Shown here piece by piece: positions 223 to 55,866 of a stretch of 64,000 nucleotides of DNA. This stretch comes from a virus. The notes below the pieces were generated by a model. It did no database searches and was not told where the DNA came from. It was given only the letters and a program-made list of their open reading frames with translations. Position 1 is the stretch's first letter. Each line of letters opens with the position of its first letter. The stretch lies in the IMG/VR virus record IMGVR_UViG_3300028800_000004, positions 1 to 64,000 of that record, one strand, 5' to 3'. The translations under genes were made by a program, and so were the position numbers.

Positions 223-287
223 ATAAAATTTACCCGATTTGTACTCCCTCGGAGCCGGGGCGGAAGGGTTAGAACCCCTCAAAGTAT

Positions 288-363
288 ACCAGACAACATG
301 CGACACAATAGCTGCCTTTCGGCATTCTTTATGTAAGAGGAAATTGTATCTATCAGTACTGGT
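288..363 (-). ncRNA. Y RNA-like ncRNA (sixth copy of the 31.2-32.1 kb family)
   Basis: Minus-strand read ACCAG-TACTGATA-GATACAA...TGCC-GAAA-GGCA...TTGTGTC-GCATGTTGT-CTGGT matches the arm consensus of the Y-like array. Both helices carry compensatory variants. Confidence 0.5.
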
Positions 364-368
364 AATCT

Positions 369-444: not shown

Positions 445-695
445 GTTAGTGGCTTCTGGTTACCCAGCCCGATTTTACGGAAGACCTTGTGATCTAGCTT
501 TCGTCACCACTTAAACTTACCCAGTTTCTCTCGCGGGACTGGGAACCCTAGTGAACGGCAGTAGCGACTGCGCGGAGCCTGACGAACTAAACTTAGTGGC
601 CTATGAACGCTCTTTGCTTTAAGCTACACCCGTCCACTTAAGGGCGGGAGAAGAGGCGCAAATCTCTTTATCCTTCATGGAACCACTTACAAACT

Positions 696-767
696 TGGCT
701 GGGGCGGCAGGAATTGAACCTACGCCTTAGGTCTTTAGGACCTACGAACTATTTATTCTACGCCCCA
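696..767 (-). tRNA. tRNA-like, anticodon undetermined (loop CCUAAAG, C33)
   Basis: Acceptor TGGGGCG/CGCCCCA, T arm GTAGG-TTCAATT-CCTGC, CCA encoded. D arm is reduced (GAA/TTC) and anticodon arm TAGGT-CCTAAAG-ACCTA lacks U33. Confidence 0.4.
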
Positions 768-771
768 ATGG

Positions 772-843
772 AGCGCGGAGTGGGACTCGAACCCACGACA
801 AGCCGGAGTAGAATCGGCTGCTCTACCACTGAGCTACCCGCGC
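772..843 (-). tRNA. suppressor-type tRNA, anticodon CUA (reads UAG)
   Basis: 72-nt canonical cloverleaf: GCGCGGG TA GCTC-AGTGGTA-GAGC A GCCGA-TTCTACT-CCGGC TTGTC GTGGG-TTCGAGT-CCCAC TCCGCGC. Loop UU-CUA-CU. A31-C39 mismatch and C37 are unusual. Confidence 0.6.
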
Positions 844-2402: not shown

Positions 2403-2794
2403 GGCTTAACGATACCCACAACTTGCTGTCCGTTGTCCCTGATCTGGATCGAATCATCCCATCCGTGGGCCTTACGAATCTTGTCTAAAGTCTTGGCAAA
2501 AGAGGACTTACGGTTCTTGTTAATCACTTTCAGTTGCTTCTTAATCGCCGCTTCCTGCTCTTTAGCCAACTGCAAACGAATCTCTAGCTGCTCCTGTGGG
2601 GTCAAAGGAACTTGAATCTCCGTCGGCTTAGGAGGCTCTGCTTTGGGAGCTTCCACCGGCTTAGAGGGTTCCTCGGGTCTGAGTTGGGGCGGCTGTACCT
2701 GCCGCTGAGGCGCGGGAGGGGGGACAGCCTTACTGGCCTCCTCTGAAAAAGAAGGACCCGTGAACAGTAAAATTCCTAGTAAAATTTTAATCAT
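2399..2794 (-). CDS. secreted proline-rich protein
   Basis: N-terminal hydrophobic signal MIKILLGILLFTGPSFS, then PPPAPQRQVQPP / EPPKP repeats. Confidence 0.6.
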   Translation of the reverse strand: MIKILLGILLFTGPSFSEEASKAVPPPAPQRQVQPPQLRPEEPSKPVEAPKAEPPKPTEIQVPLTPQEQLEIRLQLAKEQEAAIKKQLKVINKNRKSSFAKTLDKIRKAHGWDDSIQIRDNGQQVVGIVKP

Positions 2795-2816
2795 AATGTA
2801 TTATAACACCTTTAGG

Positions 2817-3143
2817 TTAGGGAGTCAAGTACTCTATCTTGAGATTCTCTTCCCTCATTTGTTCGTCAACTGCCCGATCTACTTCTCGGAGCTTGCCGAG
2901 TCTTCGTAGGGTTTCGACTTTATGCCACGCTTTGAACTCCGGAGTTTCAGCACATTTTCTAAAAGCTTCTTGCTTATTCCGGAACTGATCTCTACCGTCA
3001 CGGTGTTCCGCCCTTGCACCAGATTCGGGATGTATGCACCTGACTCCATTCTGTTTAGCGTTACGATGTTGACCCCCCTTGCCCCCCGTGCAGAACGTCT
3101 GGAACTCGAAGTCCTTCGCTGTCAGGCTGAATAACAGTGTCAT
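2817..3143 (-). CDS. class I release factor-like GGQ domain protein (ArfB/PrfH-like)
   Basis: TGGKGGQHRNAKQNGVRCIHPESG matches the RF-1 domain GGQ loop (SGPGGQNVNK..V...H.P.G). 108 aa with a basic C-terminal tail. GGAG 7 nt before the ATG. Confidence 0.75.
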   Translation of the reverse strand: MTLLFSLTAKDFEFQTFCTGGKGGQHRNAKQNGVRCIHPESGARAEHRDGRDQFRNKQEAFRKCAETPEFKAWHKVETLRRLGKLREVDRAVDEQMREENLKIEYLTP

Positions 3144-3330
3144 TGGTTAACTCCTCTACCACGGCCTTTACCCGTGCCTCTTCTTTTGTTTTTATGTCGT
3201 GTAGCTCTTGGGCCATCGCCAAAATCTCCCCCGAAGTCGCCAAACTCCACGGGCAACAAGTAGGCCAAATAGCTGATTTCTTTAGACTTGACTCGTCAAT
3301 TATCTGCTGCAATCTCTGTTTAGTTACCAT
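3061..3330 (-). CDS. hypothetical protein
   Basis: 89-aa ORF. Its last 83 nt overlap the GGQ gene in another frame. Confidence 0.4.
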   Translation of the reverse strand: MVTKQRLQQIIDESSLKKSAIWPTCCPWSLATSGEILAMAQELHDIKTKEEARVKAVVEELTNDTVIQPDSEGLRVPDVLHGGQGGSTS

Positions 3331-3535
3331 TCTTTCCCTCCCAGTAAAATGTATCGAAGTGGTGCTCTACATACCCAGACTCCATCAACGGGTTCGGGTC
3401 CGGAACAGGAACATACTCTACCCTTACCGCCAAGATTTTATTGAACCCACTCCACGCCCGTACCGCTTGCCAGAACCTAAGCTCCGGGTGCTCTTGGCAA
3501 AACTTCACGAAATCCTCTAACTCCGCATTCACCAT
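3320..3535 (-). CDS. hypothetical protein
   Basis: 71-aa ORF. Start overlaps the upstream stop (ATGGTGA). Confidence 0.5.
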   Translation of the reverse strand: MVNAELEDFVKFCQEHPELRFWQAVRAWSGFNKILAVRVEYVPVPDPNPLMESGYVEHHFDTFYWEGKNGN

Positions 3536-3640
3536 CCCAAACCTTTACCAACCGCTTCCCCGGCAGCACCCGATATAAGGGCAATAATCACAATCGCCCC
3601 GATAACCAGCCCCGCCCCCAGCCCAATCAAAAACCACATT
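3530..3640 (-). CDS. small hydrophobic peptide (36 aa)
   Basis: MWFLIGLGAGLVIGAIVIIALISGAAGEAVGKGLGW, a single TM segment. Its stop overlaps the next start. Confidence 0.4.
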
Positions 3641-3947
3641 AAAACCATCCCTTCGAGGGCAAGAAAGGCAGGTTCTTAATCCCCGACGCCCTATCTTCCC
3701 TCACCCCTTGTATCTCTGTTACCACCAGAAGCCTATCCTCCCGGTTCTCGGGATCAGCAAGTTTGATAGTGCCCTTGCCCTCCCACGTCAACTTTTTATA
3801 ATACAAATCCGTTGCTTCTCGTATTGTACCATAAAACACAAACTTACCATACCCGTAGCTAGGAAACTCCAGAATCCAGTATTCCGGCTTCGGGTCGTCC
3901 AACTGAAGAAAGCTCACCCGGTGAACCCCCGTACCCAAAATGTCCAC
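3639..3947 (-). CDS. hypothetical protein
   Basis: 102-aa ORF with a GTG start. Overlaps the upstream ORF by 89 nt. Confidence 0.5.
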   Translation of the reverse strand: MDILGTGVHRVSFLQLDDPKPEYWILEFPSYGYGKFVFYGTIREATDLYYKKLTWEGKGTIKLADPENREDRLLVVTEIQGVREDRASGIKNLPFLPSKGWF

Positions 3948-4074
3948 TGGAAGTATATTTCCAGATCGTCATACTCGGAGAGGTTTCCCCATCATAGTAT
4001 TGTGCGCCAACCTGTACTGCAATAGAATTGTCTGGGTTTAGGTGGTCTTGGCCGCAAACTAAGCATCGAATCAT
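3859..4074 (-). CDS. hypothetical protein (CxxC N-terminus), first gene of minus operon
   Basis: 71-aa ORF. Its ATG lies 5 nt after a TGGTATAAT element. Confidence 0.4.
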   Translation of the reverse strand: MIRCLVCGQDHLNPDNSIAVQVGAQYYDGETSPSMTIWKYTSSGHFGYGGSPGELSSVGRPEAGILDSGVS

Positions 4075-29880: not shown

Positions 29881-30102
29881 ATGAGCAGGCTAACTTTACA
29901 GAAAAGAAAGGACCCCCGAGACGACCAAGATACTTGGGGGTTCATGCTGGGAGACCTATTCTACGCCTTCTCGGACTTCGGAGGAAGCACCAGTAAGGAA
30001 TTAGCTACTATAGGTCTGGACTGGATTAAACAGGGATACGGGAATCCTTTCGACGGAGAGGACCCTAATAACTACGGACCAGTGTTGGAGGAGATAGAAT
30101 AG
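29881..30102 (+). CDS. hypothetical protein
   Basis: 73-aa ORF, tightly packed. Confidence 0.55.
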   Translation: MSRLTLQKRKDPRDDQDTWGFMLGDLFYAFSDFGGSTSKELATIGLDWIKQGYGNPFDGEDPNNYGPVLEEIE

Positions 30103-31244
30103 TGAAGGCAATCCTGCTTCAGGGTATGGCGTTCGGCGACGAGAGCAAAGGCGCGACAGTCGATGCTCTTTGTCGTAAGTTCCCTGTGGATCAGATAGTT
30201 CGGTATAATGGCGGTCCACAGACGGCCCATAACGTAGTAACACCACAAGGAGTACATCACACTTTCAGCCAGTTCGGGTCTGGAATGCTAGCTAACTCTA
30301 CTGTTAAGACACACTTATCTCGTTTCATGTTGATTAACCCGTTTAGTATGATGAGGGAAGCCGCCGCGTTGCCTACCTATACTCCGGTCTGGAACCGAGT
30401 TACCATAGACAGACAGTGCGTAGTCATCACTCCAATGCACAAAAGGCTTAATCAGTTAAGAGAGAAGGCAAGACGGGAAGGTGCCCACGGAAGTTGTGGG
30501 GTCGGTGTAGGGGTTGCCAGAGAACTCAGCCTGAGGTATGGTGATAGAGTGTTGTTAGTGGAAGACTTCGCGGACGAAAACAGAATCCACATGAAGCTAT
30601 TGTTCATGTTCTCGCAGTTAGGTTTCGAGATAGACAGGCTACAGAGAGAACTGAAGATTCCGGATATGGACTTTGATTTCGAGCACATGGCCCGTGCTTA
30701 CAAAGATTTCGGAAGTTACGCAAAAGTCGTTGACAAACTGGAGCCGAGTGACTTAATGTTGTTTGAAGGCGCTCAGGGCGTCCTGTTGGATGAGCGGAAG
30801 GAATTCCTGCCACACAACACTTGGACAAACTGCACCTTCGGAAACGCAGACAACCTCTTGTCAGAAGTCGGATGCAGTGATAGATTAAGGATTGGGTGCT
30901 TCAGATCGTACTTCACGAGGCACGGCCACGGGCCATTCCCAACGGAAGACGTGGACTTGACAAAATCCTTTAAGGAAGCGCATAATGGAACCGGAGAGTT
31001 TCAGGGTGCTTTTAGGTGTGGTAAATTTGATTTTGATTTAGCCAAAAAAGCACTTGACATTGTTGGCGGTTTGGATTATCTTTCTATTAGTCACTTGGAT
31101 CGGGCCTCGTTAGAAGTGGGCGATGAAATTTCAAGCACTCTAGGAGTTCCGGTAGGAGTCTGGGCCACGGGTCCCACATCAAACCACCGTGGTTTTAACT
31201 GTGAGTTGATCGACAGACTTGACAAGGTTTTGGAAACGTGTTAA
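30102..31244 (+). CDS. adenylosuccinate synthetase family protein, short form (PurA/PurZ-like)
   Basis: FGDESKG, RYNGGPQTAHN, GSCGVGVG, FEGAQGVLLD and TRHGHGPFPTE align with PurA WGDEGKG, RYQGGHNAGH, GTTGRGIG, FEGAQGTLLD and TRVGAGPFPTE. 380 aa versus about 430 for cellular PurA. Confidence 0.85.
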   Translation: MKAILLQGMAFGDESKGATVDALCRKFPVDQIVRYNGGPQTAHNVVTPQGVHHTFSQFGSGMLANSTVKTHLSRFMLINPFSMMREAAALPTYTPVWNRVTIDRQCVVITPMHKRLNQLREKARREGAHGSCGVGVGVARELSLRYGDRVLLVEDFADENRIHMKLLFMFSQLGFEIDRLQRELKIPDMDFDFEHMARAYKDFGSYAKVVDKLEPSDLMLFEGAQGVLLDERKEFLPHNTWTNCTFGNADNLLSEVGCSDRLRIGCFRSYFTRHGHGPFPTEDVDLTKSFKEAHNGTGEFQGAFRCGKFDFDLAKKALDIVGGLDYLSISHLDRASLEVGDEISSTLGVPVGVWATGPTSNHRGFNCELIDRLDKVLETC

Positions 31245-31252
31245 AATGGATT

Positions 31253-31333
31253 TGGGAATAGCGTTAGAAACAGTTACTTCTCATGCTTAATGAATTGCCG
31301 AAAGGCAGTCTCTGTTTCGCTTGTTCTTTCCCA
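31253..31333 (+). ncRNA. Y RNA-like ncRNA 1
   Basis: TGGGAA-TAGCGTTA-GAAACAG-[insert with TGCC-GAAA-GGCA hairpin]-CTGTTTC-GCTTGTTCT-TTCCCA. Both helices are fully complementary. Confidence 0.6.
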
Positions 31334-31343
31334 TATTTGAAGT

Positions 31344-31452
31344 TCTAGGTAGTGTAGATACAGTTACTTCGGTTAAAGTAGCTTCGGCTATGAGAGGTTT
31401 CGACGCCTCACCTTCTTTCGAGAAGGGTTACTGTGTCGCTTGTGCTCCTAGA
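31344..31452 (+). ncRNA. Y RNA-like ncRNA 2
   Basis: TCTAGG-TAGTGTA-GATACAG-[three-hairpin insert]-CTGTGTC-GCTTGTGCT-CCTAGA. Confidence 0.6.
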
Positions 31453-31463
31453 TGTTTTAAGGT

Positions 31464-31529
31464 TCTAGGTAGTGAAGACCACGGTTACTTCTTTGGTGAT
31501 AAACACCGTATGTCGCTTATTCTCCTAGA
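31464..31529 (+). ncRNA. Y RNA-like ncRNA 3 (minimal)
   Basis: TCTAGG-TAGTGAA-GACCACGG-[GGTG-ATAAA-CACC]-CCGTATGTC-GCTTATTCT-CCTAGA. Confidence 0.55.
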
Positions 31530-31758
31530 TAAGATTAGCCTAGTTCGCAAGAGCGCGAGTCGGCAAACCCCCGGGAACCCTTGATTTCGAATATATAGGG
31601 GCAACAAGGCAATGGTATGCGACAGTGGCTAAAACAGGGGCATTATACGGGTAGCTCCCGTGCCCCGAAGGTTGTAGGGTGGCAGAGAGTATTAGAATTG
31701 CGGGTCCTGTTACGGACTCAACGCTGGCGACGAATCTCCAGCCCCTACTAAAATTCAG

Positions 31759-31887
31759 TAGCAGTAGTGTTGAAACAATTCCTTCTTCCAAACCGTAGGT
31801 CATGGGTTCGAATCCCATCTATCAGGGTTTCGATAGTAGCTCAGTTGGTAGAGCAACAGTACAAGGTGTTTCGCTCGTTCTCTGCTA
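31759..31887 (+). ncRNA. Y RNA-like ncRNA 4 with tRNA-mimic module (YrlA-like)
   Basis: TAGCAG-TAGTGTT-GAAACA...TGTTTC-GCTCGTTCT-CTGCTA arms. Insert holds T arm ATGGG-TTCGAAT-CCCAT, loop-closed acceptor CTATC/GATAG, and D arm GCTC-AGTTGGTA-GAGC. Confidence 0.65.
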
Positions 31888-32013
31888 TAATCTGGTAACG
31901 GGTTTCACCGGTCGTGGCGGAGTCGTTAAAGAGAACAAAAACGGGAATGACTCTAACCGGTAAAGTGACCACGAATTTGCTTGCCGCCTAGAGCGTGATT
32001 ATGTTGCCAATTT

Positions 32014-32147
32014 TTTAGGTATAGTGTTAGATACAGTTACTTCAATGCTAATGAAGAAACGTCGGTTCGAATCCGACTCCCGGTGTGTGCCGGGATCGTC
32101 TAGGGGTTAGGACGCTAAAATATCTGTGTCGCTTGTTCTTACCTAAG
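32014..32147 (+). ncRNA. Y RNA-like ncRNA 5 with tRNA-mimic module (YrlA-like)
   Basis: TTTAGG...GATACAG / CTGTGTC...CCTAAG arms. Insert holds CTTCA-ATGCTAA-TGAAG, T arm GTCGG-TTCGAAT-CCGAC, loop-closed acceptor TCCCGGT/GCCGGGA, and D arm GTCT-AGGGGTTA-GGAC. Confidence 0.65.
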
Positions 32148-32339
32148 TTCTAAGAAATATGAGAATAACCCAGTGTTGTTTAGCATTTACGTCGGCTGTG
32201 GCGTTAGTAGTTGCCGCAATAGCGTCCAAACCACAAGGACTATCGAGTCCTTTAGAAGCATTAGGATTCTTGGTTTTGCTTGGAAACGTGGCGATACAAG
32301 TTTTTGGCGTCGTCATCGCAGTACACGAACTGGAGTAGT

Positions 32340-32699
32340 ATGGGTATAAAAGACCTACTTGAAAATGAAATGAAGGCCAGCCACGAGTTTTCTAAAAGTA
32401 ACTTTGGTGCTCAGGTGGGAGCGGCATACCCAGAGTTAGTAAAAGAAGTTTCTTCTAGCGATCCCGTATGCGCGACGTTGATGGTCGAATTGTGTATTGC
32501 TGGCATTACTGGAAAACAGGTAGCGGACAGTCTTAAGAAGCATAATGACTCAAAGGATTTACAGAAAGCTATCCTTGAGAATCTTCCCTCGTTTAACGGG
32601 CAGTTGTCCATGCTATACTGGGGTATCAACATAGGGCGTAAACTGGAAAAAGAAAGCCTCGAAGTTAACAAGCTTGAGGAAATGTTTGGAGGGAAATGA
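32340..32699 (+). CDS. hypothetical protein upstream of the Ro60 gene
   Basis: 119 aa from the ATG 8 nt after GGAG. Its stop overlaps the TROVE start. Confidence 0.55.
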   Translation: MGIKDLLENEMKASHEFSKSNFGAQVGAAYPELVKEVSSSDPVCATLMVELCIAGITGKQVADSLKKHNDSKDLQKAILENLPSFNGQLSMLYWGINIGRKLEKESLEVNKLEEMFGGK

Positions 32700-34063
32700 A
32701 AACCAATACTGCAATTAAGACCCCCGCTCCGAAGACGCACGAAGGTGCCACGGCAGCGCGTATCAATCCTGAGCAACAGCTTCGTCGTGTTGTTCTAGCA
32801 TCCATGTTGTTTGAAGACACCTTCTATTTGGACGGAGTTAGCTCTGCCCAGATCGTTGAAGACTCGGTTCAGGAAGTTCTTAAGAAAAAGAATGGCCCTC
32901 AAATCGTGTCCGATCTGGCATACGAAACCCGTACTAACGGTAAACTGCGCCATATCCCGTTGTTCTTGGCCCTGACTCTTGTTAGAGCAGGCAACAAAAA
33001 TACCAAACTCGGCGAGGAATGCCGTGCCGTGGTTGCGGAAACGCTGACCAAGATCATCCAGCGTCCGGACGAACTGGCGGAGTTTTTAGCTCTGTACTGG
33101 AAGGACAAGAAAGTTCCTTTGTCCAATCAGGTTAAGAAAGGACTCGCTGCTGCGTTCCAAAAGTTTGACAGGTACTCTCTGTCGAAGTACGCGAACCGGG
33201 AAGGCTCTATCTCTCTGCGCGACGTGTTGTTCTTGGTACACCCGCGTCCTCTGAACTCCGATCAACAGGAGTTGTGGAACGAGTTGGCCGAGAAGAAATT
33301 GGTTGCTCCGGATACTTGGGAGTCGAATCTGTCTGCTGGTGCGGATAAGAAAGAGACTTTCATTCGTCTGATCGAAGAGAAGAAGCTGGGTGCTTTGGCA
33401 CTACTCCGCAACTTGCGTAACATGCAACAGGCGGGAGTCCCGGATGATACCATCCGCAAAGCTTTGTCCGAAATGAAGACCGAACGTGTTCTTCCTTTCC
33501 GGTATATCTCTGCCGCTAACTACGCTCCGCAACTGGAGCCTGAGTTGGAACAGGCCATGTATCGTAGCCTTAAGGATCACGAGAAGCTGTCCGGCAAGAC
33601 CGTTCTGTTGGTGGACAATTCTGGAAGCATGGGTTCTCCCGTTTCCGGAAGATCGCAAATCAGCAGAGCCGATGCCGCTCAAGCACTGGCAATGTTGGTC
33701 CGTGAGATCAGCGAAACCAGCGAAGTGATTGTGTTTGGTACGACGGCTGGAAGCATTCCTCCCCGTAGAGGATTTGCTCTCCGCGATGCTGTCAGACATA
33801 GCCAACACGGAGGCGGGACTAACACGGAAGTTGCTAAGAAACTAGCAGATAAAGTTGGATACGACAGACTCATCATCTTCACCGATGAACAGTCGCATCA
33901 GGCTCTCTCTGCTCCTAAGGAAGGCTCCAAGGCTTACGTCATCAATGTGGCCGCATACCAGAACGGAGTTGGGTATGGGAAGTGGGTTCATATTGACGGG
34001 TTCTCGGAAGCTGCGGTAGACTTTATCCAGCAGTATGAGAAAGAGAAAAATGAGCTTGCTTAA
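32696..34063 (+). CDS. rsr: Ro60/Rsr-type protein (TROVE domain + vWA)
   Basis: N-terminal helical TROVE-like region (MLFEDTFY..., LRHIPLFLALTL, LRNLRNM). C-terminal vWA with LLVDNSGSM, GGGTN, IIFTDEQSH. Y-like RNA genes lie adjacent. Confidence 0.8.
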   Translation: MKTNTAIKTPAPKTHEGATAARINPEQQLRRVVLASMLFEDTFYLDGVSSAQIVEDSVQEVLKKKNGPQIVSDLAYETRTNGKLRHIPLFLALTLVRAGNKNTKLGEECRAVVAETLTKIIQRPDELAEFLALYWKDKKVPLSNQVKKGLAAAFQKFDRYSLSKYANREGSISLRDVLFLVHPRPLNSDQQELWNELAEKKLVAPDTWESNLSAGADKKETFIRLIEEKKLGALALLRNLRNMQQAGVPDDTIRKALSEMKTERVLPFRYISAANYAPQLEPELEQAMYRSLKDHEKLSGKTVLLVDNSGSMGSPVSGRSQISRADAAQALAMLVREISETSEVIVFGTTAGSIPPRRGFALRDAVRHSQHGGGTNTEVAKKLADKVGYDRLIIFTDEQSHQALSAPKEGSKAYVINVAAYQNGVGYGKWVHIDGFSEAAVDFIQQYEKEKNELA

Positions 34064-35911: not shown

Positions 35912-36919
35912 ATGAAAAACATATATCGCTGTGAATTCGGAAGTCATCTGTACGGTACTAATACGGAGGCTTCCGATCACGATTTTAAGTCGATCCATAT
36001 CCCATCCTCGGAGCAGATTCTACTTCAGAGGGTTCAGGATAGTACCGGCCATGTCGTGAAGAGGGAAGAAGGGGATAGAAACACCAAGGACGATACTGAT
36101 GACGAAAGTTACTCCCTTCAGAGATATTTATCTCTTCTAGCCGAAGGGCAGACCGTAGCTATCGATATGTTGTTCGTCCCTAAACCTCTGATTACAAGTG
36201 AAATATGGGAAGAAATCGTTGCGAACAAGGACAGGCTGGTCACTAAGAAGTCTTATTCCTTCGTGGGGTATTGTCGCACTCAGGCCAATAAGTATGGTAT
36301 AAAGGGTAGTAGGGTGTCAGCGGCTAAAGAGGCTATGGACTTCTTCGAGGAGGCAATTACTTTCAAAGGGCCGTTGGCTAAAGTAGGTGACTTGGGTTTG
36401 TTCCCCGCTGGAGAACACTCTCACACGGTGGTCAAGGAAACCACTCCCGGAAAGTTTGAGACGTACTTCGAGTGCTGCAATCGTATGGTAGGATATAAGA
36501 ACACTCTCAAGGAAGCGCACCATATCTTTTCCCGCATCTACGAGGAGTACGGCAAGAGAGCCAAGCTGGCCGAGTCCAACAATGGGATCGACTGGAAGGC
36601 TTTGAGTCACGCAGTAAGGGTAGGACATGAGGCTTTGGCTTTGTTATCAACTGGCGAAATTTCTTTTCCGTTGTTTAACGCACCGCATTTACTTGATATT
36701 AAAAAGGGCAGACTCCCCTACAAGGAAGTTGCTCAAGAAATAGAAGAGTTGCTGGAGGACGTGGAAGCGGCCTCTAAAACATCCCCGCTCCGGAAAGAGC
36801 CGGACTACAAGTACATCGATGGGTTGGTAAGGAGAGTTTATGGTAGAGAAGTTTTTAACGATTACTGTTTGGACAGTACTTACCACAATGGCGTATGCTC
36901 TGTTGCAGGGGAGGTTTAA
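35912..36919 (+). CDS. nucleotidyltransferase-fold protein (RlaP/DUF4037-like)
   Basis: N-terminal GSHLYGTNTEASDHDF (GS..YG...SD.D pattern of pol-beta-type NTases). Confidence 0.55.
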   Translation: MKNIYRCEFGSHLYGTNTEASDHDFKSIHIPSSEQILLQRVQDSTGHVVKREEGDRNTKDDTDDESYSLQRYLSLLAEGQTVAIDMLFVPKPLITSEIWEEIVANKDRLVTKKSYSFVGYCRTQANKYGIKGSRVSAAKEAMDFFEEAITFKGPLAKVGDLGLFPAGEHSHTVVKETTPGKFETYFECCNRMVGYKNTLKEAHHIFSRIYEEYGKRAKLAESNNGIDWKALSHAVRVGHEALALLSTGEISFPLFNAPHLLDIKKGRLPYKEVAQEIEELLEDVEAASKTSPLRKEPDYKYIDGLVRRVYGREVFNDYCLDSTYHNGVCSVAGEV

Positions 36920-54869: not shown

Positions 54870-55405
54870 TGGACTTTAAGACCTTTGATAAGTGCATGAT
54901 ACTTATCCGCGCGTGGCGCAGCAGAACCGACCAGAACAACAACGAGTGGCCGGATTCCCGCGATCCTTCCTTGAGAGAACTTCTCACGGAGTTCTCGGTG
55001 GTGCCTCAGGACCTAGAGAAAAGCATGGTTGCGTTAGCGGCATGGAGAGAAGCCGGTGAAGACATTTATCAAAAAATGTCTACCATCACCCATGTAATAA
55101 GAAACCGTCAGAAGCAGGGGCTGTTCAGAACTCACCTAGTCTCTTCCGGATTGGATCAGTTTCCGACCATGACTGGCGATGGCTCCTCGGGGTATCCTAC
55201 TGAGACTGAAAACTTTAAGAAGATTCTCCAGAATTTAGATATCATCCTCGAAGACAAGGCCGTGGACTTAACCCAGAATGCTATTTACTTTGGGGTTGTA
55301 GGGGATGGTATGCCGGACTGGTTTCGTGGTATAGTAGAATCTACTAACTACGAGAGAACAGTTCAGGCAGCGAACCTGACGTTCTACAGGGAAAGGAAAA
55401 AATGA
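54869..55405 (+). CDS. hypothetical protein (weak SleB-like cell-wall hydrolase resemblance)
   Basis: LAAWREAGEDIYQKMSTITHVIRNR recalls the ..GEARGE...AVA.VI.NR pattern. Confidence 0.4.
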   Translation: MDFKTFDKCMILIRAWRSRTDQNNNEWPDSRDPSLRELLTEFSVVPQDLEKSMVALAAWREAGEDIYQKMSTITHVIRNRQKQGLFRTHLVSSGLDQFPTMTGDGSSGYPTETENFKKILQNLDIILEDKAVDLTQNAIYFGVVGDGMPDWFRGIVESTNYERTVQAANLTFYRERKK

Positions 55406-55866
55406 ACTGGCCTGACCAACCGATTGTGATAGTAGATATCGACGGGACGCTAGCTGATGGTACGCATCGAGAACACTTCATTCGTAAGACGCCTAAGGAC
55501 TGGAAGAACTACTTGGGCGGGACCTCCGAGGACGTTCCTATCCTACACGTTTTTAGATGGGTGCAGGAGCTAAGCAAGGATCATACCATCGTCATAGCCA
55601 CAGGAAGAATGGAGGAGCGGAGACAGCCTACGCTAGAGTGGTTCGAAAGAGTGTGGGCAGAAGGAGCACCCCGGTTTCCTGTATTCAAATATTACTTCCG
55701 TCCGCAGAACGACTATCGGCCCGACTACGAAGTCAAGCCGGAATTTTTAAAAGACATGCCTACCCAACCCGTTCTTATTCTGGAAGATAGACCTTCGGTT
55801 ATCCGGATGTGGAGAGGGCTAGGCTTGAACGTAATCCCCGTAAAAGGGGAGTGCGAAGATTTCTAA
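55402..55866 (+). CDS. HAD-family phosphatase (polynucleotide 3'-phosphatase / nucleotidase-like)
   Basis: VIVDIDGTLADG (DxDGT), IATGR, LILEDR. Confidence 0.7.
   Translation: MNWPDQPIVIVDIDGTLADGTHREHFIRKTPKDWKNYLGGTSEDVPILHVFRWVQELSKDHTIVIATGRMEERRQPTLEWFERVWAEGAPRFPVFKYYFRPQNDYRPDYEVKPEFLKDMPTQPVLILEDRPSVIRMWRGLGLNVIPVKGECEDF

What the first reader, a model, noticed from the sequence alone, without database searches (positions are those of the whole stretch)
31253..34063. Tandem array of five Y RNA-like genes in front of a phage Ro60/Rsr (TROVE-vWA) gene
Five units lie between the purA-like gene and the TROVE-vWA gene. Each is built as 5'-TCTAGG-TAGTGT(A/T)-GATACAG-TTACTTC-[19 to 80 nt variable insert]-CTGTGTC-GCTTGTTCT-CCTAGA-3'. 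The upstream arm pairs with the downstream arm around the insert, and unit-specific compensatory changes support this. The outer helix is TGGGAA/TTCCCA (31253/31328), TCTAGG/CCTAGA (31344/31447 and 31464/31524), TAGCAG/CTGCTA (31759/31882) and TTTAGG/CCTAAG (32014/32142). The inner helix is GAAACAG/CTGTTTC, GATACAG/CTGTGTC (with a G-U pair), GAC-C-ACGG/CCGT-A-TGTC and GAAACA/TGTTTC. Between the two helices both strands stay conserved but unpaired (TAGTGT opposite GCTTGTTCT), which looks like a protein-binding internal loop. A conserved terminal stem plus a variable effector module is the Y RNA plan. Bacterial and phage Ro60 orthologs are known to be encoded next to their Y RNAs. A five-member array with five different modules is more elaborate than the one or two Y RNAs I know of at such loci.
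Basis: partly seen in the sequence, partly recalled or inferred. Interest (0 to 1): 0.85.

Follow-up and report, generated by a model that had tools for sequence, protein, structure and literature searches.

The report
Phage Y RNA gene array beside Ro60
Five small structured RNA genes just upstream of a phage Ro60 gene (plus a sixth 31 kb away) are real Y RNA-like genes, two of them tRNA mimics, but such arrays of two to eight turn out to be usual at Ro60 loci of this protein subfamily.

Summary
Five + strand units (31253-31333, 31344-31452, 31464-31529, 31759-31887, 32014-32147) share an outer helix, a bulged U, an internal loop, an inner helix, a UUACUUC motif, a variable module and GCUUGUUCU. 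They lie 0.55-1.44 kb upstream of a TROVE-vWA (Ro60) gene.

Both helices covary strongly across 60 related units: 93% of cells pair and all 15 pairs show changes on both sides. Models built without any window sequence recover U1, U3, U4 and U5. U4 and U5 score 91 and 85 bits against a tRNA-like Y RNA model built from other phages. U2 was found only by the model that contains it.

A sixth unit lies at 287-364 on the minus strand, next to a tRNA gene.

The Y RNA interpretation is supported. U4 and U5 follow the YrlA plan (T arm, closed acceptor stem, D arm). The others are short, YrlB-like.

The array is not exceptional. Caulobacter phage CcrColossus has eight units, Xanthomonas phage 10KY502B has five, and bacterial loci have up to seven. 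None reaches the Rfam YrlA threshold.

Verdict: a new member of a known kind. The multi-gene arrays seem under-described. RNA expression and Ro60 binding are untested.

The parts
31219..31247 (+). Sigma-70-like promoter: TTGACA, 17 nt spacer, TG-extended TAAAAT. It overlaps the end of the adenylosuccinate synthetase ORF. The expected transcription start is about 6 nt downstream, which is the 5' end of U1.
   Evidence: 11 of 12 consensus matches with TG before the -10. This is a consensus match only. Its spacing to U1 (31253) is read from the sequence.
31253..31333 (+). U1, an 81 nt Y RNA-like unit. Outer helix UGGGAA/UUCCCA, bulged U, AG:CU, loop CGUUA, inner helix GAAACAG/CUGUUUC, UUACUUC. 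The module is two short hairpins, one of them UGCC-GAAA-GGCA.
   Evidence: Fold z-score -4.3. 51.4 bits, E 9e-14, with model R2, which contains no window sequence. 38 bits with R3.
31344..31452 (+). U2, a 109 nt unit. Outer helix UCUAGG/CCUAGA, inner helix GAUACAG/CUGUGUC. The module has three hairpins. The middle one (GAGGU-UUCGAC-GCCUC) is loosely T-arm-like.
   Evidence: Fold (z -2.5). 47.1 bits with R1, which contains this unit. Not recovered by the leave-out models R2 and R3. Its stems are almost identical to those of U3 (outer) and U5 (inner).
31464..31529 (+). U3, a 66 nt minimal unit: a long hairpin with a pyrimidine-rich loop. The 5' loop reads UGAA, the closest of the six units to the published CGAA motif.
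   Evidence: Fold. 34.8 bits, E 2e-8 with R2. 38.8 bits with R3.
31530..31758 (+). Spacer A, 229 nt, G+C-rich, of unknown role. It ends in TAAAAT five nt before U4, which could be an internal -10 element.
   Evidence: No fold signal (z -1.15). No Rfam match at E<=10. No homologue in related loci. The minus-strand ORF 31540-31818 has no family hit.
31759..31887 (+). U4, a 129 nt tRNA-like (YrlA-type) unit. T arm 31802-31818 (AUGGG-UUCGAAU-CCCAU), closed acceptor-like stem 31819-31836, D arm 31839-31854 (GCUC-AGUUGGUA-GAGC).
   Evidence: Rfam YrlA 37.5 bits, E 2.5e-6, below the threshold of 69. 91.4 bits, E 2.6e-23, full length, with R3, which was built only from other phages.
31888..32013 (+). 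Spacer B, 126 nt. It is conserved with one related phage contig (L026 2296-2425, whose Ro60 is 70% identical; the best BLAST segment, 59 nt, is 78% identical). Role unknown.
   Evidence: Fold z -1.9. No other homologues among 89 pattern hits in IMG/VR.
32014..32147 (+). U5, a 134 nt tRNA-like unit. Anticodon-arm-like hairpin 32040-32056 (CUUCA-AUGCUAA-UGAAG), T arm 32061-32077, 7 bp closed acceptor-like stem 32078-32095, D arm 32097-32114.
   Evidence: 85.4 bits, E 1.1e-21 with R3. The Rfam tRNA model aligns its anticodon and T arms to 32030-32079 (24.1 bits, below the threshold of 29). Fold z -3.3.
32159..32699 (+). Two small ORFs (59 aa, probably a membrane protein, and 119 aa) between the array and the Ro60 gene. 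The second overlaps the Ro60 start codon (ATGA).
   Evidence: called as genes on other contigs of the same phage. No Pfam or PHROG hit. An ORF of similar size (118 aa, homology not tested) sits directly upstream of the Ro60 gene in L028.
32696..34063 (+). Ro60/Rsr orthologue, 455 aa: TROVE (HEAT-repeat ring) plus a vWA domain with a MIDAS motif (VDNSGSM).
   Evidence: Pfam TROVE 5e-16 and vWA_Ro60 1e-7. PHROG 850 'RNA-binding protein' 1.5e-55. Nearest solved structures are phage phiLo Ro60, 9KOP and 9L5Y, E 5e-27 over residues 11-448.
287..364 (-). U6, a 78 nt sixth unit, 31 kb away on the opposite strand, directly after tRNA-Trp (369-444). Its module resembles U1's (GCC-GAAA-GGC hairpin). The near-invariant G:C pair is swapped to C:G.
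   Evidence: 36.8 bits with R1. 32.3 bits, E 1e-7 with R2, which contains no window sequence. Fold z -2.3.

Best explanation
The units are genes for Y RNA-like non-coding RNAs, the partner RNAs of the phage's own Ro60 (TROVE-vWA) protein.

Shown by these analyses:
- Six RNAs share one stem plan. It runs: outer helix, bulged U, R:Y and G:C pairs, an asymmetric internal loop (5' YGWW(N), 3' GCYUGUU), a 7-8 bp inner helix, then UUAC-UUC.
- Each unit carries a different module.
- U4 and U5 carry a circularly permuted tRNA-like domain (T arm, closed acceptor stem, D arm), as in YrlA.
- U1, U3 and U6 carry short hairpins, as in YrlB.

Inferred:
- The array is transcribed from the promoter at 31219-31247, possibly with internal starts, in the same direction as the Ro60 operon. 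It is then cut into RNAs of 66-134 nt.
- The conserved stem and loop form the Ro60-binding site. It sits where the published GNCGAAN0-1G / CGAA motif sits and is a relaxed form of it.
- Each module tethers Ro60 to a different partner or gates access to the Ro60 ring. Likely partners are host PNPase, as in the Deinococcus, Salmonella and phage phiLo RYPER-type complexes, and for the tRNA-like units an unknown tRNA-binding factor.
For: Structure: all five units fold as predicted. On a sequence-only alignment of 22 units, 96% of cells pair, 14 of 15 pairs show changes on both sides, and the covariation score is 0.947 against at most 0.19 when partners are slid. On 60 units from 38 sources the figures are 93%, 15 of 15 and 0.852 against at most 0.17.

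Independent recognition: R2 contains no window sequence and finds U1, U3 and U6, and nothing else in 64 kb. R3 was built from 20 tRNA-like units of other phages, including CcrColossus. It finds U4 at 91.4 bits and U5 at 85.4 bits.

tRNA-like core: RNAalifold on an alignment made from sequence alone (it includes U4 and U5) recovers the T, acceptor-like and D stems, and 21 of 23 pairs have compensatory changes. T arm, acceptor base and D arm are 94-98% paired in 20 other units. U4 gives a YrlA hit at E 2.5e-6.

Linkage to Ro60: all 78 R3 hits in 27 phage loci and all 54 in 17 genome loci (16 bacterial records and one archaeal MAG contig) are on the Ro60 strand. In the genome loci all but one lie upstream of the gene. 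In phage loci most lie upstream, and a few lie just downstream or among tRNA genes.

Protein: TROVE plus vWA_Ro60. The nearest solved structure is phage phiLo Ro60. MIDAS residues are conserved, as are four of nine mapped RNA-contact residues (K141, K142, R169, R178) (PMC12135203).

Precedent: Y RNAs lie within 4 kb of rsr on the same strand, and every studied species has one tRNA-like and one hairpin Y RNA (PMC4201824). phiLo Ro60 binds two upstream Yrl RNAs and host PNPase (PMC12135203). UUAC matches the conserved YUAY of YrlA (PMC4201824; bioRxiv 10.1101/312249).

Promoter: its position fits the U1 5' end.
Against: - No expression or binding data exist for this uncultured phage.
- No unit reaches the Rfam YrlA gathering score. 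Four of the five give no Rfam Y RNA-type hit at all.
- The strict GNCGAAN0-1G motif is not present in any unit (AGCGUUAG, AGUGUAG, AGUGAAG, AGUGUUG, AGUGUUAG).
- U2 is not recovered by the leave-out models.
- Five of the nine phiLo Ro60 RNA-contact residues I could map are not conserved.
- No PNPase or RtcB gene is present in the window, so any effector would be a host protein or encoded elsewhere.
- The two spacers inside the array are unexplained.
Confidence: 0.82

Rival explanations
1. The units form a cis-acting structured leader of the Ro60 operon. They would be repeated Ro60-binding sites that autoregulate translation or stability of the downstream mRNA, rather than free-standing RNAs.
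For: The array sits between a promoter and the Ro60 operon on the same strand. No convincing terminator lies in between.
Against: - U6 lies 31 kb away on the other strand beside a tRNA gene.
- In crAss001 and Microcystis phage Mvi-JY20 the units are downstream of the Ro60 gene. In L008 they are scattered through a tRNA array.
- Modules differ sharply between units, which a simple binding-site repeat would not need.
- In M. smegmatis the upstream Y RNAs are processed from one precursor into free RNAs (PMC4201824).
Confidence: 0.06
2. U4 and U5 are circularly permuted tRNA precursors. They would be cut (for example by RNase P in the acceptor-like stem) and matured into tRNA-like molecules that work apart from Ro60.
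For: - U5 holds all four tRNA arms in permuted order, with a 7 bp acceptor-like stem and an anticodon-like 7 nt loop.
- M. smegmatis YrlA, which has a 7 bp stem, is cleaved by RNase P and receives CCA (PMC4201824).
- A related phage contig encodes an RNase P RNA.
Against: - The acceptor-like stem is closed by a 4-5 nt loop.
- The same conserved stem and loop occur on the non-tRNA-like units.
- ARAGORN calls no tRNA at U4 or U5.
- U4 has a 5-6 bp stem and no anticodon-like loop.
Confidence: 0.05
3. The units are decaying relics of duplicated tRNA genes or a repeated genomic element, with no function as RNA.
For: They sit among or near tRNA genes in many loci. Parts of them score as tRNA.
Against: - Compensatory changes maintain both helices across 60 units from phages and bacteria whose Ro60 proteins are only 41-76% identical to the window's.
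- Strand linkage to the Ro60 gene is strict: 132 of 132 R3 hits on related loci.
- The loop motifs are invariant.
Confidence: 0.02

Closest known systems
YrlA (Rfam RF02553; S. Typhimurium and M. smegmatis; Chen et al. 2014, PMC4201824; structure in bioRxiv 10.1101/312249)
   Same: - Encoded upstream of the Ro60 gene on the same strand.
- The 5' and 3' ends pair into a two-helix stem with an asymmetric internal loop that carries the presumed Ro60 site.
- A conserved YUAY (here UUAC) follows the inner helix.
- The module is T arm, closed acceptor stem and D arm (U4, U5).
   Different: - Scores are below the Rfam threshold (37.5 against 69 bits for U4; no hit for the rest).
- The loop motif is RGYGWW(N)G rather than GNCGAAN0-1G.
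- The 3' strand GCYUGUUCY is conserved, whereas in Salmonella and M. smegmatis only the 5' strand is recognisable.
- U5 and about 45% of related tRNA-like units keep an anticodon-arm-like hairpin followed by a 4-5 nt variable loop. Salmonella YrlA lacks an anticodon loop.
YrlB / Yrn2-type short bacterial Y RNAs (PMC4201824)
   Same: U1, U3 and U6 are long hairpins with small loops. They sit beside a tRNA-like Y RNA at the same locus, as in all three bacteria studied.
   Different: There is no sequence homology to test against, because YrlB has no Rfam model. Four non-tRNA-like units (U1, U2, U3, U6) occur in this window rather than one.
Yrl1 and Yrl2 of Thermus phage phiLo with its Ro60 (PMC12135203; PDB 9KOP, 9L5Y)
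   Same: - A phage-encoded Ro60, the nearest solved relative of the window protein (E 5e-27).
- Y RNA-like genes directly upstream.
- A stem-bulge-stem with a CGAA-type motif bound by Ro60.
- It forms a complex with host PNPase.
   Different: phiLo has two RNAs and this window has five plus one. The phiLo RNAs are described as hairpins with no tRNA-like domain. The motif here has U or C at the first position and A or U at the last two.
Metazoan Y RNAs (RF00019; for example the four human Y RNA genes)
   Same: The modular plan is the same: a terminal stem with a bulge that binds Ro60, plus a variable module. Several paralogous Y RNAs occur per genome.
   Different: There is no sequence or covariance-model match. 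The metazoan RNAs have no tRNA-like module and are separate Pol III genes.
tRNA genes and circularly permuted tRNA genes
   Same: T and D arms match the tRNA consensus (GGUUCGAAUCC, UAGCUCAGUUGGUAGAGC). The arms are in permuted order with a closed acceptor stem. Annotators have called parts of homologous units tRNA-Gln, tRNA-Thr and tRNA-Ser.
   Different: No acceptor stem is formed by free 5' and 3' ends. ARAGORN makes no call, and the tRNA model gives only a partial, sub-threshold match.

Membership tests
Bacterial/phage Y RNA, YrlA subclass (Chen et al. 2014; Rfam RF02553) | Encoded within about 4 kb of a Ro60 orthologue on the same strand | tested here: met
   U1-U5 lie 549-1443 nt upstream of ORF 32696-34063 on the + strand. 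U6 does not meet this: it is 31 kb away on the opposite strand.
Bacterial/phage Y RNA, YrlA subclass (Chen et al. 2014; Rfam RF02553) | The 5' and 3' ends pair into a long stem interrupted by an internal loop | tested here: met
   Folds. Covariation (93-96% paired; 14-15 of 15 pairs with changes on both sides).
Bacterial/phage Y RNA, YrlA subclass (Chen et al. 2014; Rfam RF02553) | GNCGAAN0-1G motif near the 5' end (the presumed Ro60 contact) | tested here: not met
   The units read AGCGUUAG, AGUGUAG, AGUGAAG, AGUGUUG and AGUGUUAG at the equivalent place. Only a relaxed RGYGWW(N)G fits. Related CcrColossus units read GGCGUAG.
Bacterial/phage Y RNA, YrlA subclass (Chen et al. 2014; Rfam RF02553) | Conserved YUAY after the stem, at the start of the V region | tested here: met
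   UUAC in U1, U2, U3 and U5; UUCC in U4; UUUC in U6. T23, C25, T27 and C28 are invariant and A24 and T26 nearly invariant (>=90%) in alignment A1.
Bacterial/phage Y RNA, YrlA subclass (Chen et al. 2014; Rfam RF02553) | tRNA-like module in the order T arm, closed acceptor-like stem, D arm | tested here: met
   Met for U4 and U5 only. U1, U2, U3 and U6 lack it, so they are at best YrlB-like.
Bacterial/phage Y RNA, YrlA subclass (Chen et al. 2014; Rfam RF02553) | Score at or above the Rfam gathering threshold (69 bits) | tested here: not met
   U4 scores 37.5 bits and the other units give no hit. Homologous units in cultured phages score 31-56 bits. No YrlA match reaches the threshold in 13 IMG/VR loci or 17 genome loci.
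Bacterial/phage Y RNA, YrlA subclass (Chen et al. 2014; Rfam RF02553) | The RNA is bound and stabilised by Ro60/Rsr | not testable with these tools
   Needs immunoprecipitation or a gel-shift assay.
Ro60/Rsr protein | TROVE (HEAT-repeat ring) domain plus a vWA domain with a MIDAS site | tested here: met
   Pfam TROVE and vWA_Ro60 are both above their cut-offs. The protein aligns over residues 11-448 to phage phiLo Ro60, with DxSxS, the GGT threonine and TDEQ conserved.
Metazoan Y RNA (RF00019) | Match to the covariance model | tested here: not met
   No hit at E<=10 in 31150-32400.
tRNA | Cloverleaf with an acceptor stem formed by the 5' and 3' ends | tested here: not met
   ARAGORN calls nothing at 31253-32147. 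The Rfam tRNA model matches only positions 6-65 in U5, at 24.1 bits against a threshold of 29.

The most novel reading that the evidence does not exclude
The arrays are panels of permuted whole-tRNA mimics. In U5 and 12 of 28 related tRNA-like units, the hairpin after UUAC is a 5 bp stem with a 7 nt loop carrying U at position 2 and a purine at position 6. In most of them a 4-5 nt variable-loop-like segment (AGGUC in several, AAAC in U5) follows. The loops imitate particular anticodon arms: GCU, UGU, GUU, CUG, CUU, CUC, UUU and UGA.

Presented on Ro60, such mimics could act as decoys or sensors for host anticodon nucleases. They could also guide the phage's RNA-repair enzymes (RlaP at 35912-36919, PNKP phosphatase at 55402-55866) to damaged tRNAs. 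Each unit in an array would then cover a different tRNA or effector.
Probability: 0.1. Interest if true: 0.8.

Novelty: new member of a known kind. Interest (0 to 1): 0.42.

Why it matters
Y RNAs are the long-enigmatic partners of the Ro60 autoantigen. In bacteria the partner of the tRNA-like module is still unknown.

This locus adds six well-supported members. The comparison it prompted has wider use. Ro60 loci of this subfamily usually carry arrays of 2-8 Y RNA genes with different modules. The curated Rfam model misses them at its threshold. Genome annotators sometimes label pieces of them as tRNA genes.

Cultured systems with large arrays make the function of multiple Y RNAs experimentally approachable. 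Examples are Caulobacter phage CcrColossus (8 units), Xanthomonas phage 10KY502B (5 units) and Bradyrhizobium. The window itself comes from an uncultured phage and shows nothing outside the known plan.

Tried and rejected
- Rfam at gathering thresholds over the whole window gave only tRNAs.
- cmsearch with filters off gave lower, truncated scores than default filters and was dropped.
- Model R2 cannot report units with modules of 60 nt or more, so a third, full-length model was needed.
- My first regex scanner missed units with bulged inner helices. A looser one gave 3 hits in 1.18 Mb of shuffled sequence.
- Spacers A and B gave no significant fold, no Rfam hit and no homologue in IMG/VR loci.
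- A 15-mer from spacer B scanned against IMG/VR returned 89 loci. nhmmer found the full element in none of them (best E 0.08), so they are most likely chance matches.
- Aligning spacer A to the equivalent spacer of L026 was unconvincing.
- I tested the V hairpin as a general feature and rejected it. It is only 57% paired across 20 units, so I left it out of model R3. It is real in about 45% of units.
- Megablast of the locus against GenBank phages found nothing.
- Two reviews (PMC10870794, PMC6047535) and the supplements of Chen et al. 2014 are not held. I therefore could not check whether multiple hits per phage were tabulated there.
- I looked for PNPase, RtcB or RNA ligase genes in the window and found none.

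Full report
**1. What is in the sequence**

Between an adenylosuccinate synthetase gene (30102-31244) and a TROVE plus vWA_Ro60 gene (32696-34063) lie five + strand units:
- U1 31253-31333
- U2 31344-31452
- U3 31464-31529
- U4 31759-31887
- U5 32014-32147

Each unit reads, 5' to 3':
- an outer helix of 6-8 bp
- an invariant U
- AG
- a 4-5 nt loop (YGWW(N))
- an inner helix of 7-8 bp that starts with G
- UUACUUC (UUCCUUC in U4)
- a module of 14-80 nt
- the inner helix 3' strand, ending in C
- GCUUGUUCU
- the outer helix 3' strand

Evidence that this is more than chance:
- RNAfold gives the predicted two-helix stem for all five units, with z-scores of -2.2 to -4.3.
- The repeat finder recovers the arm families.
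- The 3' motif TCGCTYRTKCT occurs five times, all here. Shuffles give 0.26 on average.

Four corrections apply:
- Two spacers of 229 and 126 nt interrupt the array.
- The module lengths are 31, 60, 14, 80 and 80 nt.
- There is a sixth unit (section 3).

**2. Is it a real RNA family?**

The TROVE protein has relatives in 18 IMG/VR contigs at 41-59% identity. By eye, L004, L014 and L007 carry the same kind of unit upstream of their TROVE genes, with entirely different helix sequences.

I took 22 units (5 from the window, 17 from other loci), removed their modules and aligned them by sequence alone with MAFFT. On that alignment:
- 96% of cells form standard pairs.
- 14 of 15 pairs show changes on both sides.
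- The covariation score is 0.947, against at most 0.19 when partners are slid.
- The pair between the A/G after the bulged U and the U/C before the outer 3' strand splits 11 A-U to 11 G-C.

Caveat: about half of the seeds were picked by a scanner that required complementarity. That inflates the percentage paired. It does not inflate the diversity of pair types at positions fixed by the invariant motifs.

On 60 units from 38 phage and bacterial sources aligned to the model, 93% of cells pair and all 15 pairs show changes on both sides. The score is 0.852 against at most 0.17. This alignment is fitted to the structure.

**3. Independent recognition of the window's units**

Model R2 was built from the 17 non-window stems. 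Over both strands of the whole window it finds:
- U1 at 51.4 bits
- U3 at 34.8 bits
- a sixth unit at 287-364 on the minus strand at 32.3 bits
- nothing else at E<=1

R2 cannot span long modules.

Model R3 was built from 20 full-length tRNA-like units of other phages, including CcrColossus, Xanthomonas phage 10KY502B and Brevundimonas phage Kikimora. It holds no window sequence. It finds:
- U4 at 91.4 bits (E 2.6e-23)
- U5 at 85.4 bits (E 1.1e-21)
- U3, U1 and U6 through their stems

U2 is recovered only by the model that contains it. Its helices are nearly identical to those of U3 and U5.

U6 sits directly after tRNA-Trp in a minus-strand tRNA cluster. Its module is like U1's, and the otherwise near-invariant G:C pair is swapped to C:G.

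**4. The modules**

U4 and U5 contain a T arm (GGUUCGAAUCC), a closed stem-loop and a D arm (UAGCUCAGUUGGUAGAGC in U4), in that order.

- Rfam's YrlA model aligns to U4 end to end at E 2.5e-6, though at 37.5 bits it is below the threshold of 69.
- RNAalifold on a sequence-only alignment of 25 tRNA-like units recovers the outer helix and the T, acceptor-like and D stems. 21 of 23 pairs have compensatory changes.
- On 20 non-window units the T arm is 98% paired, the acceptor base 95% and the D arm 94%.

U5 also has a 5 bp, 7 nt-loop hairpin (CUUCA-AUGCUAA-UGAAG) right after UUA. The Rfam tRNA model aligns this hairpin to the anticodon arm. Such a hairpin, with U at loop position 2 and a purine at position 6, occurs in 13 of 29 tRNA-like units. 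Shuffled segments give 1.6 on average and at most 6. A 4-5 nt variable-loop-like segment usually follows (AGGUC in several units, AAAC in U5). These units are therefore complete tRNAs in circularly permuted order, with the Y stem attached between positions 26 and 27.

The other modules:
- U1 and U6 carry two small hairpins.
- U3 is a minimal long hairpin with a pyrimidine-rich loop.
- U2 has three hairpins, one loosely T-arm-like.

**5. The protein and the genome**

The 455 aa protein is TROVE plus vWA_Ro60 and belongs to PHROG 850.
- Its nearest solved relatives are 9KOP and 9L5Y, the Ro60 of Thermus phage phiLo (E 5e-27 over residues 11-448).
- MIDAS residues are conserved.
- Four of the nine phiLo residues shown to matter for RNA binding that I could map are conserved (K141, K142, R169, R178) (PMC12135203).

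The window is clearly from a phage. It has lysozyme, a family A DNA polymerase, integrase, helicases, primase-helicase, ribonucleotide reductase, RecA and at least ten tRNA genes.

The identical Ro60 protein occurs on 19 metagenomic contigs, the longest 114,911 bp. The array is identical on those I read.

An RlaP nucleotidyltransferase (35912-36919) and a PNKP-type phosphatase (55402-55866) give a partial RNA-repair context. No PNPase, RtcB or RNA ligase gene was found among the window ORFs I scanned.

A near-consensus promoter (TTGACA, 17 nt, TG-TAAAAT; 31219-31247) ends 6 nt before U1. No convincing terminator separates the array from the Ro60 operon.

**6. Comparison with what is known**

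Chen et al. 2014 (PMC4201824) reported the following:
- YrlA-related sequences within 4 kb of rsr on the same strand, in 254 bacteria and 22 phages.
- A 5' GNCGAAN0-1G motif.
- A conserved YUAY.
- A T, acceptor-like and D tRNA-like domain.
- At least two Y RNAs in every species studied: one tRNA-like, one a long hairpin.

The YrlA structure confirmed the tRNA mimicry and noted a closed acceptor stem and no anticodon loop (bioRxiv 10.1101/312249).

Phage phiLo Ro60 binds two upstream Yrl RNAs through a stem-bulge-stem with a CGAA motif and assembles with host PNPase (PMC12135203).

The window's units fit this plan in position, strand, stem architecture, UUAC and, for U4 and U5, the tRNA-like core. 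They differ in four ways:
- The strict motif is absent. RGYGWW(N)G stands in the same place.
- The 3' strand is also conserved.
- They score below Rfam's threshold.
- U5 has an anticodon-arm-like hairpin.

**7. Is a five-member array unusual?**

It is not unusual in sequence space.

With R1, R3 and the scanner, the 27 phage loci hold 78 R3 hits at E<=1e-4, all on the Ro60 strand. Counts per locus:

| Locus | Units |
|---|---|
| Caulobacter phage CcrColossus (all eight also read by eye, L030 2753-3946) | 8 |
| This window | 5 (+1 distant) |
| L001 | 5 |
| L004 | 5 |
| Xanthomonas phage 10KY502B | 5 |
| Brevundimonas phage Kikimora | 5 |
| Most other loci | 2-4 |
| crAss001 (downstream of the Ro60 gene) | 3-4 |
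| Ralstonia phage RsoM2USA | 0 |

In GenBank, pieces of these units are annotated as tRNA-Gln, tRNA-Thr or tRNA-Ser.

Seventeen loci from the species-representative genome collection (16 bacterial records and one archaeal MAG contig) encode Ro60 proteins 48-57% identical to the window's. They give 54 R3 hits, all on the Ro60 strand and all but one upstream:
- Aestuariivirga: seven by R3, with one further R1 hit
- Terricaulis: six
- A Terriglobia MAG: five
- Bradyrhizobium: three or four

None of these loci has a YrlA hit at Rfam's threshold.

I found no paper in the held library that describes such arrays. The supplements of Chen et al. and two reviews were not available.

**8. How it most likely works**

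Shown:
- A conserved, covarying stem with invariant loop nucleotides.
- Diverse modules.
- Strict strand linkage to Ro60.

Inferred from the named precedents:
- The stem-loop is the Ro60-binding site.
- The RNAs are cut from an operon leader transcript.
- Each module tethers the Ro60 ring to a different partner or gates its cavity. Host PNPase is the best-documented partner. The partner of the tRNA-like domain is unknown.

The rival readings are all less likely, for the reasons given under rivals:
- a cis-acting leader
- permuted pre-tRNAs
- dead tRNA relics

**9. Unexplained**

- Spacer A (31530-31758) has no fold signal, homologue or family.
- Spacer B (31888-32013) is conserved with one related contig. 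Its best BLAST segment is 78% identical over 59 nt, and the alignment extends over most of its length. It has no other homologue or family.

**10. Verdict**

This is a genuine Y RNA gene array beside a phage Ro60 gene. It is a new member of a known kind and typical of its subfamily in size. Its wider value is that such arrays are common, unannotated and apparently undescribed.

Noticed in passing
L030 (Caulobacter phage CcrColossus NC_019406) 2753-3946: Eight tandem Y RNA-like units lie upstream of gp139 ('RNA-binding protein', TROVE). Five are tRNA-like. One overlaps the annotated 'tRNA-Gln' (L030 3164-3231). All eight are hit by model R3.
   Followed up: yes
L032 (Xanthomonas phage 10KY502B OQ622092) 3371-3958: Five units lie upstream of the TROVE gene of a 43 kb cultured phage. 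The last overlaps the annotated 'tRNA-Thr' (3831-3898). Rfam YrlA scores are 46.7 and 55.9 bits, both below the threshold.
   Followed up: yes
L134 (Aestuariivirga MAG), L129 (Terricaulis MAG), L126, L131/L135/L137/L139 (Bradyrhizobium): Bacterial chromosomes with this Ro60 subfamily carry 3-7 units upstream of the gene. Rfam's YrlA model reaches threshold in none of them. I did not check whether these loci are prophages.
   Followed up: partly
L035 (Bacteroides phage crAss001) 5448-6164; L031 (Microcystis phage Mvi-JY20) 5380-5590: In these phages the units lie downstream of the TROVE gene rather than upstream.
   Followed up: partly
window 31888-32013 and L026 2296-2425, 2575-2690: The spacer between U4 and U5 holds an element conserved with one related phage contig. 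Shared blocks are GGGUUUCACC, GGCRGAGUCGUUAAA...AUGACUCU and CCGCC..AGAGCGUG.(G)AUA. There is no family, no other homologue, and too few sequences to test a structure.
   Followed up: partly
window 31749-31754 and 31996-32002: TAAAAT ends 5 nt before U4, and TGATTAT lies about 12 nt before U5. These could be internal -10 elements. Neither has a good -35, and the scan did not call them.
   Followed up: no
window 769-843 (minus strand): ARAGORN calls a tRNA with anticodon CUA (labelled tRNA-Pyl). It is an amber-suppressor-type tRNA in a phage tRNA cluster and could hint at TAG recoding.
   Followed up: no
window about 105-225 and 445-698 (minus strand): Two unassigned non-coding stretches lie in the tRNA cluster. 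The first has D-arm and T-arm consensus sequences separated by a long insert and is not called as a tRNA. The second is about 250 nt between tRNA genes. Neither gives an Rfam hit at E<=1.
   Followed up: partly
L008 3081-3356: A related phage contig encodes a bacterial class A RNase P RNA (126.8 bits, above the threshold of 100). It sits inside a large tRNA array that also holds Y RNA-like units.
   Followed up: no
L033 (Brevundimonas phage Kikimora) 7299-7765: A permuted tmRNA hit (57.7 bits, threshold 47) lies 2 kb downstream of the TROVE gene.
   Followed up: no
window 35912-36919 and 55402-55866: The window has an RlaP nucleotidyltransferase (also present near the Ro60 gene in relatives L025 and L026) and a PNKP-type phosphatase domain. 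Together they give a partial RNA-repair gene set. L025 also has an RNA ligase fragment nearby.
   Followed up: partly
L004 5805-5990: A long near-perfect hairpin (GGGGUUUACAGCCUGGUG ... CACCAGGCUGUAAACCCC) lies directly upstream of the TROVE gene in a related contig, after its five units. Its role is unknown.
   Followed up: no
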